6,219 bases of DNA from a virus. Lineage: Duplodnaviria > Heunggongvirae > Uroviricota > Caudoviricetes. The stretch covers positions 1 to 6,219 of the IMG/VR virus record IMGVR_UViG_2778261347_000002. One strand, 5' to 3'. Positions 3,786 through 4,110 of the stretch are shown piece by piece (within the stretch, counting starts at the first letter, position 1; each line of letters opens with the position of its first letter). The notes under the pieces are model-generated. The model was given only the letters and a program-made list of their open reading frames with translations, did no database searches and was not told where the DNA came from. A program made the translations under genes and the position numbers.

Positions 3786-3801
3786 TTGCAGGTTCGATTC
3801 C
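3786..3801 (+). other. 16-nt fragment identical to the T-arm region of tRNA-Arg(CCU) (TTGCAGGTTCGATTCC); att-related remnant, not a tRNA gene
   Basis: Contains the tRNA T-loop signature GGTTCGATTCC. No matching acceptor or 5' half is present, so no cloverleaf can form. Assignment to argW relies on my memory of that tRNA sequence. Confidence 0.5.
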
Positions 3802-3820
3802 CTATTCGGAGATAGCACTC

Positions 3821-4021
3821 ATGCAACACGAACTACAACCTGATTCACTGGTTGATTTGAAATTCATCATGGCTGATACTGGCTTTGGTAAAACCTTCAT
3901 CTACGACCGGATTAAGTCCGGCGACCTGCCTAAAGCCAAAGTTATCCACGGTCGAGCAAGATGGTTATATCGTGACCATTGTGAATTCAAAAATAAGCTC
4001 TTAAGCCGCGCTAATGGGTAA
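3821..4021 (+). CDS. torI: TorI/AlpA-family prophage excisionase (recombination directionality factor), 66 aa
   Basis: Sequence MQHELQPDSLVDLKFIMADTGFGKTFIYDRIKSGDLPKAKVIHGRARWLYRDHCEFKNKLL matches the AlpA/Vis-type HTH pattern and, from memory, the 66-aa KplE1 TorI. GGAG at 3808-3811. Sits immediately upstream of the att core and the integrase. Confidence 0.75.
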   Translation: MQHELQPDSLVDLKFIMADTGFGKTFIYDRIKSGDLPKAKVIHGRARWLYRDHCEFKNKLLSRANG

Positions 4022-4094
4022 AATAGCGGGTAAAATATTTCTCACATCTAAAAAATACCATTCTAATCAATCCCCTGCCACTCTAAGTAGATGT

Positions 4095-4110
4095 CTGCAG
4101 GGGACACCAT
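4095..4110 (+). other. attachment-site core: CTGCAGGGGACACCA(T), identical to the 3' terminal 15 nt of tRNA-Arg(CCU)
   Basis: Exact match to the acceptor 3' strand plus discriminator and CCA of argW as I recall it, with a degenerate T-loop (tAGATgt) just upstream. Lies between the excisionase and the integrase, as expected for a tRNA-targeting tyrosine integrase. Confidence 0.55.

What the first reader, a model, noticed from the sequence alone, without database searches (positions are those of the whole stretch)
3786..4110. Excisionase gene sits between two pieces of one tRNA-Arg 3' end
Bases 4095-4109 (CTGCAGGGGACACCA) equal the last 15 nt of E. coli tRNA-Arg(CCU) argW as I recall it (...GCAGGTTCGATTCCTGCAGGGGACACCA), the tRNA used as attachment site by KplE1/CPS-53. 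Bases 3786-3801 (TTGCAGGTTCGATTCC) equal the 16 nt immediately 5' of that in the same tRNA. The two pieces are contiguous in the tRNA but here lie 293 bp apart, with the torI-like gene between them. There is no 5' half, so this is not a tRNA gene. A chance 11-mer GGTTCGATTCC in 6 kb is improbable, so this looks like a recombination scar. One reading is that a torI-plus-core module was swapped into an older att segment.
Basis: partly seen in the sequence, partly recalled or inferred. Interest (0 to 1): 0.7.

Follow-up and report, generated by a model that had tools for sequence, protein, structure and literature searches.

The report
Conserved tRNA T-arm box before torI
The excisionase gene of this E. 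coli prophage is preceded by a 13-16 base copy of part of the host tRNA it integrates into; this copy is a selectively maintained element of the whole phage family rather than a recombination scar, and it is a candidate control site for the gene that decides prophage excision.

Summary
Bases 3786-3801 equal argW nt 46-61 and 4095-4109 equal nt 61-75, and a 16-mer match is beyond chance. The window is the right end of an Sf6/HK620/KplE1-type prophage at argW in E. coli O26:H11. Bases 4095-4110 are the known 16-nt att core (attR), followed by a second island with a dead integrase.

The scar/module-swap reading is not supported, for three reasons.
- The mosaic joint lies upstream of the fragment, at about 3780.
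- In relatives the core keeps its own degenerate T loop (GTTCGATgtaTGCAGGGG).
- Of 32 TorI lineages, 16 carry the 13-mer CAGGTTCGATTCC with 0-2 mismatches about 31 nt before the start codon. One has a 1-nt deletion and 15 lack it cleanly. None holds a half-decayed copy, although neutral sites are only 54% identical.

It is therefore a functional cis element, apparently undescribed; Sf6 annotates the spot only as a putative pI promoter. My best guess (about 0.35) is a copy of the attB left half-site bound by integrase IntS at the torI 5' end. Rivals are a TorI operator (the box contains GTTCG), an RNA leader element, and a promoter. No binding data exist.

The parts
3753..3776 (+). Intrinsic terminator (hairpin AAGCCGCC-TGAT-GGCGGTTT plus T run) closing the ea/early-left region. 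The following TTTTTATTGC(C) is the shared boundary sequence at which lambda-type and argW-type recombination modules are joined.
   Evidence: Terminator scan. Identity with HK106, H19J and Stx1a_11KH263 ends at about 3780, after which those phages carry the lambda pI TTGC-N6-TTGC and xis. K-12 KplE1 identity begins at about 3771.
3786..3801 (+). 16-nt exact match to argW nt 46-61 (end of the variable loop, the T-stem 5' strand, the T loop and 2 nt of the 3' strand). This is the E. coli-lineage form of the box.
3789..3801 (+). Family-wide conserved T-arm box CAGGTTCGATTCC (argW nt 49-61); GTTCGATT.C is invariant. It contains the TorI-type pentamer GTTCG (3792-3796) and equals the 13 nt of argW lying just 5' of TGCAGGGG, whose last base overlaps the first base of the 16-nt core.
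   Evidence: 16 of 32 TorI lineages have 0-2 mismatches at -31/-32 from the ATG, and 15 are at background level of 5-7. It occurs only there and only on the torI strand in 124 kb of flanks. Flanking columns show 0.26-0.41 pairwise identity and 4-fold sites 0.54. In the E. coli clade, variants inside the box are all rare.
3804..3812 (+). Weak second TorI-like pentamer ATTCG (3804-3808; GTTCG, GTCCG or GACCG in some relatives) overlapping the Shine-Dalgarno GGAGA (3808-3812).
   Evidence: The pentamer definition comes from Panis 2010.
3821..4021 (+). torI, the recombination directionality factor (excisionase) and TorR inhibitor, 66 aa.
   Evidence: ORF list; RefSeq annotation WP_001163428.1; homologues.
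4016..4036 (+). Two direct GGGTAAAAT repeats (4016-4024 and 4028-4036), the IntS arm-type motif of the P arm. The first overlaps the torI stop codon.
   Evidence: Sequence. The same motif is repeated in attL before intS. Panis 2010 states that arm-type sites share TAAA. Conserved in all lineages.
4072..4103 (+). Conserved inverted repeat CCCCTGC (4072-4078) / GCAGGGG (4097-4103). Its 18-nt spacer ends in GTAGATGT (4087-4094), the decayed form of the family's TT(C/A)GATGT, which is the presumed phage-side core-type half-site and a T-loop remnant.
   Evidence: 95.4% of cells paired, two pairs with compensatory double changes, and slid controls of 35-56%.
4095..4110 (+). 16-nt att core CTGCAGGGGACACCAT (argW nt 61-75 plus T). 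Here it is the attR of the Sf6/HK620-like prophage and at the same time the left junction of the next island.
   Evidence: Panis 2010 gives this exact core. Sf6 annotates it as the attP core. argW and intS lie 40.7 kb to the left in O26 11368.
4285..5475 (+). P4-type tyrosine integrase pseudogene (in-frame TAA at 4948-4950) that opens a second integrative island. It is not part of the torI module.

Best explanation
SHOWN. The window holds the right end of an argW-integrated, Sf6/HK620/KplE1-type prophage. The layout is terminator, T-arm box, SD, torI, a 74-nt P arm, and the 16-nt att core (attR). A second island then follows in tandem. The upstream tRNA piece is the E. coli version of a conserved 13-nt box (CAGGTTCGATTCC, argW nt 49-61). 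The box belongs to the recombination module, sits about 31 nt before the torI start codon, and is under purifying selection. It is a functional cis element, not a scar.

INFERRED. The box reproduces the stretch of argW lying just 5' of TGCAGGGG. The crossover must lie inside TGCAGGGGACA, because the att identity stops there in some lineages and the host DNA beyond the tRNA differs between genera. The T-loop stretch is therefore the left core-type half-site of attB. I propose that the box is a second copy of that half-site and is bound by the core-binding/catalytic part of integrase IntS, possibly bridged from the arm-type sites at 4016-4036. This would place the constitutively made integrase on the 5' edge of the excisionase gene, where it could damp torI expression in the lysogen or act as an accessory site of the attP complex. 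TorI itself may also contact the box through its GTTCG pentamer.
For: Context.

Module membership: identity with lambda-type phages and with K-12 breaks upstream of the box.

Selection:
- The distribution is bimodal: 16 lineages with 0-2 mismatches, one with a 1-nt deletion, and 15 at the random level.
- 4-fold sites of torI are only 0.54 identical.
- The leader on both sides of the box is scrambled, at 0.26-0.51.
- The box occurs only at about -30 and only on the torI strand.
- E. coli-clade variants in the box are rare: 0.7 minor-allele loci per site, against 6.2 at third codon positions.
- Losses look like clean deletions between CTGG repeats (inferred from sequences).
- Tandem duplications exist.

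Half-site logic:
- The phage-side flank of the core is the conserved TT(C/A)GATGT(A/C), sharing TTCGAT with the box.
- The identity block is truncated at GGGGACA(C) in L012, L134, L217 and L009, and the host flanks differ between genera.
- T-loop positions 59-60 (TT) are free in tRNAs generally (textbook knowledge) but invariant in the box. This points to a sequence-level copy of argW rather than a generic T-loop fold.

Panis 2010 shows that IntS and TorI already act as repressors through att sites, and names RDF expression as the excision switch.
Against: - There are no binding or expression data for this region in any paper I could read.
- The 135-bp attR that suffices for in vitro excision starts at about 3998 and lacks the box.
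- Fifteen lineages, including phages with an IntS-type attP (L134, L234), do without the box, so it is accessory.
- The box is conserved over 11-13 nt, which is longer than the conserved part of the phage-side half-site.
- Lone core-type half-sites usually bind integrases weakly.
- The tandem copies have 16- and 13-nt periods, which do not fit cooperative binding on one face of the helix.
- The fixed spacing to the SD would fit an RNA-level mechanism equally well.
Confidence: 0.35

Rival explanations
1. TorI autoregulatory operator. The box is kept because it carries the RDF recognition pentamer GTTCG, with a second pentamer 12 bp downstream over the SD. TorI would then shut off or cap its own synthesis, as it does for intS.
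For: - Panis 2010 defines TorI sites as GTTCG, GATCG and GTCCG.
- The box contains GTTCG in every lineage.
- A second pentamer at +12 is GTTCG, GTCCG or GACCG in L011, L116, L252 and L217, and ATTCG in E. coli.
- The L224/L202 lineage has tCAGTTCGATTTCC, which matches the I-site flank CAGTTCG exactly.
Against: - I-sites in four lineages read aGTTCGC(c/a), whereas the base after the pentamer is A in 15 of the 16 lineage representatives and is followed by a conserved TT.C that I-sites lack.
- The second pentamer is poor or absent in most lineages (AACTG, AACCG, CATCG).
- TorI binds cooperatively to arrays with about 10-bp phasing. Here the spacing is 12 bp, and 16 or 13 bp in the duplicated forms.
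- This reading does not explain why 13 of 13 bases equal the argW T arm.
Confidence: 0.2
2. RNA-level leader element. In the torI mRNA the box forms a T-loop-like hairpin and/or its 3' UUCC pairs with the SD GGAG, controlling translation or processing. Together with the 3' hairpin ending in ACACCA, it could recruit tRNA-handling enzymes.
For: - The box is strand-specific and has a nearly fixed 5-nt spacer to the SD.
- UUCC/GGAG pairing, or AUUUCC/GGAGAU pairing, appears in most minimum-energy folds.
- The only common substitution in the box (C to T at argW position 61) keeps a G-U pair.
- A conserved, co-varying inverted repeat lies just after torI.
Against: - The SD-pairing probability is not higher than with a shuffled box (0.45-1.0 against 0.52-0.87), and RNAalifold gives no consensus structure.
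- The T stem would be only 2-3 bp in most lineages.
- L224 and L221 lose G52/G53 yet keep the rest of the box.
- Loop positions 59-60 are invariant, which a T-loop fold does not require.
- No Rfam family matches.
Confidence: 0.15
3. One reading: an inert recombination scar. One argW 3' end was split when a torI-plus-core cassette was inserted or swapped into an older att segment.
For: The two pieces abut exactly in the tRNA (nt 46-61 and 61-75). Taken together, the E. coli lineage (5' extension TTG) and the L013/L016 lineages (3' extension TG) hint at a longer ancestral match.
Against: - The mosaic joint is upstream of the fragment, not between it and torI.
- Relatives keep a second T-loop copy next to the core.
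- There is purifying selection, a fixed position and tandem duplication, and no half-decayed copies.
- The 5' extension is lineage-specific: G at -4 occurs in only 2 of the 16 lineage representatives.
Confidence: 0.05
4. It is the pI promoter annotated in Sf6 and HK620: a (CII/C1-activated) promoter for integrase expression, reading through torI and attP.
For: The Sf6 record places 'pI; possible integrase expression promoter' at 18404-18431, which encloses the box at 18408-18420. The homologous position in lambda-type phages holds the real pI. TTGC...TTGC lies at 3777-3789.
Against: - The TTGC repeat is N5 rather than N6, and is absent in most lineages (TTGC..TCCA; K-12 has TTAC).
- The would-be -10 varies (CCCTAT, CCCAAA, TCCAGT and others) with no conserved A2/T6.
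- The promoter scan finds nothing in 3560-4320.
- A start site here would leave little or no leader for the conserved SD.
Confidence: 0.07

Closest known systems
KplE1 (CPS-53) / HK620 / Sf6 / CUS-3 site-specific recombination module at argW (Panis, Ansaldi and co-workers)
   Same: It has the same 16-nt core, the same TorI protein and the same gene order torI, core, intS. It has the same arm-type GGGTAAAA motifs and the same TorI I-sites in attL. The box itself is present, base for base, in K-12 KplE1 and in Sf6.
   Different: Nothing differs in the module itself. What is added here is the recognition that its 5' edge carries a conserved copy of the argW T arm. In the papers I could read, the att sites are defined without it (attR starts inside torI's 3' end). 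In this window the intS side is replaced by a different island's dead integrase, because of tandem integration.
Lambda pI / CII box in front of xis
   Same: It occupies the same place in the genome, directly after the terminator that closes the ea region and directly before the excisionase gene. It shares the boundary sequence TTTTTATTGC.
   Different: The lambda element is TTGC-N6-TTGC with a start site inside xis. Here the repeat is one base short, is not conserved, and no -10 is conserved. The conserved part is the T-arm box instead.
Core-type half-sites of tyrosine integrases (for example lambda CAACTTNNT)
   Same: The box equals the sequence flanking the crossover region of attB. The phage-side flank shares the distal six bases (TTCGAT) and differs in the proximal three, as lambda core sites do.
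   Different: It lies 293 bp from the crossover, is a single half-site with no adjacent overlap region, and has not been shown to bind IntS.
tRNA 3'-end fragments left by successive integrations at tRNA genes
   Same: It is a partial tRNA sequence inside a mobile element integrated at that same tRNA.
   Different: Such fragments run to the 3' end of the tRNA, mark element borders and decay. This one stops inside the T stem, lies within a module, and is conserved.

Membership tests
KplE1/HK620/Sf6-type argW recombination module | 16-nt core CTGCAGGGGACACCAT identical to the argW 3' end | tested here: met
   Window 4095-4110; core sequence as quoted in Panis 2010; argW.
KplE1/HK620/Sf6-type argW recombination module | TorI-type RDF gene directly upstream of the core and pointing towards it | tested here: met
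   torI at 3821-4021, 74 nt before the core; homologues 98-100% identical; annotated torI.
KplE1/HK620/Sf6-type argW recombination module | IntS integrase next to argW at the other prophage end, with its promoter, I-sites and arm-type sites in attL | tested here: met
   In O26 11368, argW is at 3264129-3264203 and intS at 3264365-3265522. The attL sequence carries GTTCG/GTCCG/GATCG and GGGTAAAA motifs. This lies outside the window.
KplE1/HK620/Sf6-type argW recombination module | Excision and integration activity of the sites | not testable with these tools
   Only literature on K-12 KplE1 is available.
tRNA gene or tRNA pseudogene | Cloverleaf detectable by ARAGORN or the Rfam tRNA model | tested here: not met
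   ARAGORN finds 0 genes in the window. There is no tRNA hit in Rfam even at E up to 10.
att-site duplicate of a tRNA 3' end (integration scar) | The fragment runs from the crossover to the tRNA 3' end and marks an element border | tested here: not met
   True for 4095-4110. The upstream fragment stops at argW nt 61 and lies about 6-10 nt inside the module.
TorI (RDF) binding site (I-site) | Pentamer GTTCG, GATCG or GTCCG | tested here: met
   GTTCG at 3792-3796; definition from Panis 2010.
TorI (RDF) binding site (I-site) | Extended consensus aGTTCGC(c/a), arranged in arrays with about 10-bp phasing | tested here: not met
   The box has GGTTCGATT. A partner pentamer lies at 12 bp and is mostly degenerate.
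TorI (RDF) binding site (I-site) | Binding by TorI | not testable with these tools
   No data found.
Lambda-type CII-dependent pI promoter | TTGC-N6-TTGC straddling a -35, plus a usable -10 | tested here: not met
   TTGC-N5-TTGC at 3777-3789, not conserved; no conserved -10; the scan finds no promoter.
IntS core-type half-site | Sequence identity with the attB flank of the crossover region | tested here: met
   13 of 13 bases (16 of 16 in E. coli) equal the argW nt lying just 5' of TGCAGGGG. The box shares TTCGAT with the phage-side flank in relatives.
IntS core-type half-site | Binding by IntS | not testable with these tools
   The core-type sites appear only in figures of Panis 2007/2010 that are not held. 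There are no data for this position.
Described RNA family (Rfam 15) | Score at or above the gathering threshold | tested here: not met
   The best match is STnc130 on the minus strand, 24.3 bits against a threshold of 55, driven mostly by the terminator hairpin.

The most novel reading that the evidence does not exclude
torI is bracketed by two tRNA look-alikes that act at the RNA level. The 5' element is a T-loop box identical to argW nt 49-61. The 3' element is a co-varying 7-bp hairpin whose 3' arm is the tRNA acceptor strand ending in ACACCA. The excisionase mRNA would then be cut, trimmed, modified or stabilised by the host tRNA-maturation machinery (RNase P, RNase E, exonucleases, TruB, TrmA). 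This would tie the decision to excise to the state of tRNA processing, and only in the attP/attR configuration.
Probability: 0.07. Interest if true: 0.85.

Novelty: new variant of a known kind. Interest (0 to 1): 0.5.

Why it matters
In this phage family the integrase is made all the time, and excision is decided by whether the excisionase TorI is made. Panis et al. 2010 say so explicitly, and they say that how the RDF gene is controlled remains to be understood. A 13-nt element held intact right in front of that gene across Escherichia, Citrobacter, Enterobacter, Serratia, Pantoea, Edwardsiella and Hafnia-like phages is an obvious handle on that control.

Its identity with the attB half-site suggests a simple, testable link between the recombinase and RDF expression. 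The family includes model phages (Sf6, HK620) and prophages of pathogenic E. coli (O26:H11), so mutants and assays are at hand.

The result also corrects a tempting misreading. A tRNA fragment inside a prophage is not necessarily a fossil of an earlier integration.

Tried and rejected
- **Chance.** Rejected by the shuffle tests.
- **Sigma-70 promoter.** The scan finds none in 3560-4320, and no -10 is conserved across lineages.
- **CII box.** The spacing is N5 and the repeat is not conserved.
- **RNA structure.** The minimum-energy folds, the SD-pairing probabilities against shuffled-box controls, and RNAalifold give no significant signal.
- **Rfam.** There are only sub-threshold hits. STnc130, antisense at 3744-3871, scores 24 bits, mostly from the terminator, and was dropped.
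- **Does the box track the host T stem?** No. The att core shows the host 3' strand as TGC nearly everywhere, while position -4 of the box is G only in the E. coli lineage.
- **Other copies of the box.** None elsewhere in Sf6 or in 124 kb of flanks.
- **Generalisation to other tRNAs.** Of the matches, 107 were real tRNAs, and none of the 13 others preceded a TorI-like ORF. This is a weak negative.
- **TorI specificity change in diverged lineages.** Their I-sites are still GTTCG and GTCCG, so the comparison is not informative.
- **Long-range pairing** of the box with the core to rebuild a T stem. It is possible only in E. coli and conflicts with the P-arm inverted repeat, so it was not pursued.
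- **Literature.** Panis 2007 (JBC), Panis 2010 (Virology), Clark 2001 and Menouni 2013 (Rho-dependent control upstream of torI, which I recall only from memory) are not held.
- **First viral-contig scan** with the TorI alignment. It returned only 100%-identical copies, so diverged homologues were used as queries instead.

Full report
**1. The observation.**
The window reads TTGCAGGTTCGATTCC at 3786-3801 and CTGCAGGGGACACCAT at 4095-4110. The argW genes of E. coli K-12 and of the strain the window comes from are identical. Both end ...TTGCAGGTTCGATTCC|TGCAGGGGACACCA.

ARAGORN finds no tRNA gene. With the core masked, the longest exact match between the window and argW is 16 nt, against at most 13 in 300 dinucleotide shuffles.

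**2. Where the window sits.**
The window is 100% identical to chromosomes of E. coli O26:H11 and relatives, for example strain 11368 at 3300759-3306955. To its left lies a complete P22-like (Sf6/HK620-type) prophage. At that prophage's far end, 40.7 kb away, are argW and intS, with the attL described for KplE1.

- Window 1-3780 is the early-left 'ea' region.
- 3821-4021 is torI.
- 4095-4110 is the published 16-nt core of KplE1/HK620/Sf6, here acting as attR.

Right of the core a different element begins. It opens with a P4-type integrase carrying an in-frame stop (4285-5475), followed by an island of about 30 kb with Ag43, an antitoxin and IS debris. The downstream piece of the finding is thus a known att core in a tandem array.

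**3. The upstream piece belongs to the torI module.**
K-12 KplE1 and phage Sf6 carry the same sequence in front of torI. Phages with a lambda-type int/xis module (HK106, H19J, an O26 Stx1a phage) share the window up to the terminator and the words TTTTTATTGC. After that they carry the lambda pI box TTGC-N6-TTGC and xis.

K-12 differs from the window to the left of about 3771 and is the same to the right. The mosaic joint is therefore at about 3771-3781, a few bases upstream of the tRNA-like piece. It is not between that piece and torI, as a 'torI-plus-core swapped into an older att segment' would require.

**4. The core has its own T loop.**
In relatives from other genera, the 74-nt P arm between torI and the core ends in (G)TTCGATGT(A/C/T), directly before TGCAGGGGACACCAT. 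Against the tRNA (GGTTCGATTCCTGCAGGGG) only three bases differ.

The E. coli lineage has the decayed form GTAGATGT (4087-4094). The T loop is therefore represented twice in the module.

**5. The upstream piece is a conserved box.**
I collected TorI loci from one genome per species and from viral contigs, using the E. coli protein and three diverged homologues as queries. This gave 249 loci, 96 distinct leaders and 32 torI lineages at less than 93% nucleotide identity.

The best match to CAGGTTCGATTCC in the 60 nt before the start codon is bimodal:
- 16 lineages have 0-2 mismatches, nearly always starting at -31 or -32.
- One lineage has a 1-nt deletion (tCAGTTCGATTTCC).
- 15 lineages sit at the level of random 60-mers (5-7 mismatches).
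- No half-decayed copies exist.

In the box-bearing lineages GTTCGATT.C is invariant and CAG before it is 81-88% conserved. The columns further 5' show 0.26-0.41 pairwise identity, and the five bases between box and SD show 0.27-0.51. Four-fold degenerate sites of torI itself are only 0.54 identical (positions 0-7 of the first count were used to select the sequences, which is why the unbiased count matters).

The box occurs nowhere else in 124 kb of flanks except in one true tRNA gene and one chance hit, and it is always on the torI strand. Sf6 has one copy in 39 kb.

Within the E. coli clade, variants inside the box exist but are all rare: 0.7 minor-allele loci per site. The comparison values are 2.0 in the rest of the leader, 6.2 at third codon positions and 0.04 at first and second positions (some contigs were fetched twice, which does not affect the ratios).

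Lineages without the box either have torI abutting the preceding gene or show what look like clean deletions between short repeats (GCCTG|GAG in L015 and L215). Three lineages carry the box twice in tandem.

This is the signature of a functional element that is accessory: kept intact where present, and lost whole where lost.

**6. What it is not.**
- No sigma-70-like promoter is found in 3560-4320.
- The TTGC...TTGC at 3777-3789 is one base short of a CII box and is not conserved. Neither is the hexamer that Sf6's annotated 'pI' would use as a -10.
- No Rfam family reaches threshold.
- Folding gives no more SD sequestration than with a shuffled box, and no consensus structure emerges. Even so, UUCC of the box can pair with GGAG in most lineages.

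**7. What it may be.**
Panis et al. 2010 define the TorI sites of attL as GTTCG, GATCG and GTCCG, and show that both IntS and TorI repress intS through att sites. They state that the excision switch is RDF expression.

*TorI.* The box contains GTTCG. However, I-sites in four lineages read aGTTCGC(c/a) in arrays with 10-bp phasing, whereas the box reads GGTTCGATT.C. Its would-be partner pentamer over the SD is mostly degenerate.

*IntS.* The box is, base for base, the stretch of argW lying just 5' of TGCAGGGG.
- The att identity stops at GGGGACA(C) in several lineages, and the host DNA beyond the tRNA differs between genera.
- The crossover must therefore lie in TGCAGGGGACA, and the left half-site that IntS reads on attB must be the T-loop stretch, which is the box.
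- The phage-side half-site shares its distal six bases, TTCGAT.
- The loop positions that are free in tRNAs in general (59-60) are invariant in the box. This argues for a sequence-level copy of argW rather than a T-loop fold.

I therefore rank 'extra attB-type half-site for IntS at the 5' edge of torI' first (about 0.35). The TorI operator comes second (about 0.2), an RNA leader element third (about 0.15), the promoter at about 0.07 and a neutral scar at about 0.05.

Against all DNA-operator models:
- The 135-bp attR that works in vitro starts at about 3998.
- Half of the lineages live without the box.
- No binding data exist.

A scan for an analogous GGTTCGAATCC box in front of RDF-like genes found none, but it was cut at 120 loci.

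**8. A second feature inside the finding's coordinates.**
CCCCTGC (4072-4078) and GCAGGGG (4097-4103, part of the core) form an inverted repeat with an 18-nt spacer. It is kept at the same place in most lineages. When the tRNA-derived arm differs, the other arm follows: CCCCTAC with GTAGGGG in L018, and TCCCTGC with GCAGGGA in L122 and L117. Single changes are C to T opposite G.

On 31 sequences, 95.4% of cells pair, two pairs show double changes, and slid controls give 35-56%. It is part of the minimum-energy RNA fold of 4022-4125, but the fold as a whole is not unusual (z = -1.0). Whether it is an RNA hairpin ending in ..ACACCA or a symmetric protein site is open. It feeds the 'novel case'.

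**9. Comparison and novelty.**
The module is a full member of the KplE1/HK620/Sf6 family. The core, torI, the arm-type sites and the I-sites are already known.

The T-arm box is present in the type members. In what I could read it is annotated only as a putative promoter or boundary sequence (Sf6 record) and is left outside the defined att sites. I rate it a new variant of a known kind, with interest 0.5. It is a concrete, cheap-to-test handle on RDF control in a model system, not a new kind of system.

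Noticed in passing
window 4285-5475 (stop at 4948-4950), and NC_013361 3304869 to about 3337000: This is a P4-type integrase (Arm-DNA-bind_3, Phage_int_M and Phage_integrase domains) with an in-frame TAA. It opens an island of about 30 kb (Ag43, YeeU antitoxin, antirestriction protein, IS debris) lying in tandem to the right of the prophage attR. dsdC is missing, dsdX is truncated, and the csc sucrose genes are adjacent.
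   Followed up: partly
L131, L221, L021, L117 (after the att core): The same junction recurs in prophages of other genera: torI, then the core, then a P' arm (ca(c/t)acctctcctga...), then a P4-like integrase starting MPLNARQVETAKP. Phage-plus-island tandem arrays at argW therefore seem common.
   Followed up: no
window 4072-4078 and 4097-4103: The inverted repeat CCCCTGC / GCAGGGG spans the end of the P arm and the att core, with compensatory changes in L018 and in L122/L117. Another clade (L211, L124, L246) instead pairs ATGG(T/C)G..CCCC with GGGGAC(A/G)CCAT. The function is unknown.
   Followed up: partly
window 3777-3789: This is TTGC-N5-TTGC, one base short of the lambda CII recognition repeat. 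It sits at the position where HK106, H19J and an O26 Stx1a phage carry the true pI TTGC-N6-TTGC.
   Followed up: yes
L256, L235, L253 (about -45 and -29 from torI); L221: The T-arm box is tandemly duplicated: CAGGTTCGATTCCCgtCAGGTTCGATTCCC with a 16-nt period, and GTTCGATTCCCgcGTTCGATTACC with a 13-nt period.
   Followed up: partly
window 3744-3871, minus strand: There is a sub-threshold, full-length Rfam match to the sRNA family STnc130 (24.3 bits, gathering score 55), antisense to the torI start, the box and the terminator. The alignment rests mainly on the terminator hairpin.
   Followed up: partly
window 4710-4719, minus strand: AGGTTCGATT (10 nt of the argW T arm) lies inside the integrase pseudogene. 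Matches of this length are common in shuffles, so it is probably chance.
   Followed up: yes
window 17-181, 178-303 and about 762-1238: RefSeq marks several early-left genes of this prophage as pseudogenes: a DUF2737 gene with an internal stop, and truncated ead/Ea22-like genes. The prophage may be decaying.
   Followed up: no
window 5476-6219: About 750 nt of AT-rich sequence follows the integrase pseudogene with no convincing ORF. A terminator-like hairpin (cctccacatatagtggaggcttttttt) lies near 6145-6170. Not examined.
   Followed up: no
L134/L132 attP (Klebsiella-like lineage): The identity of attP with the tRNA stops at GGGGACAC and is followed by TTG. Integration would therefore replace the encoded CCA end of argW. 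This bounds the crossover to the left part of the core.
   Followed up: partly
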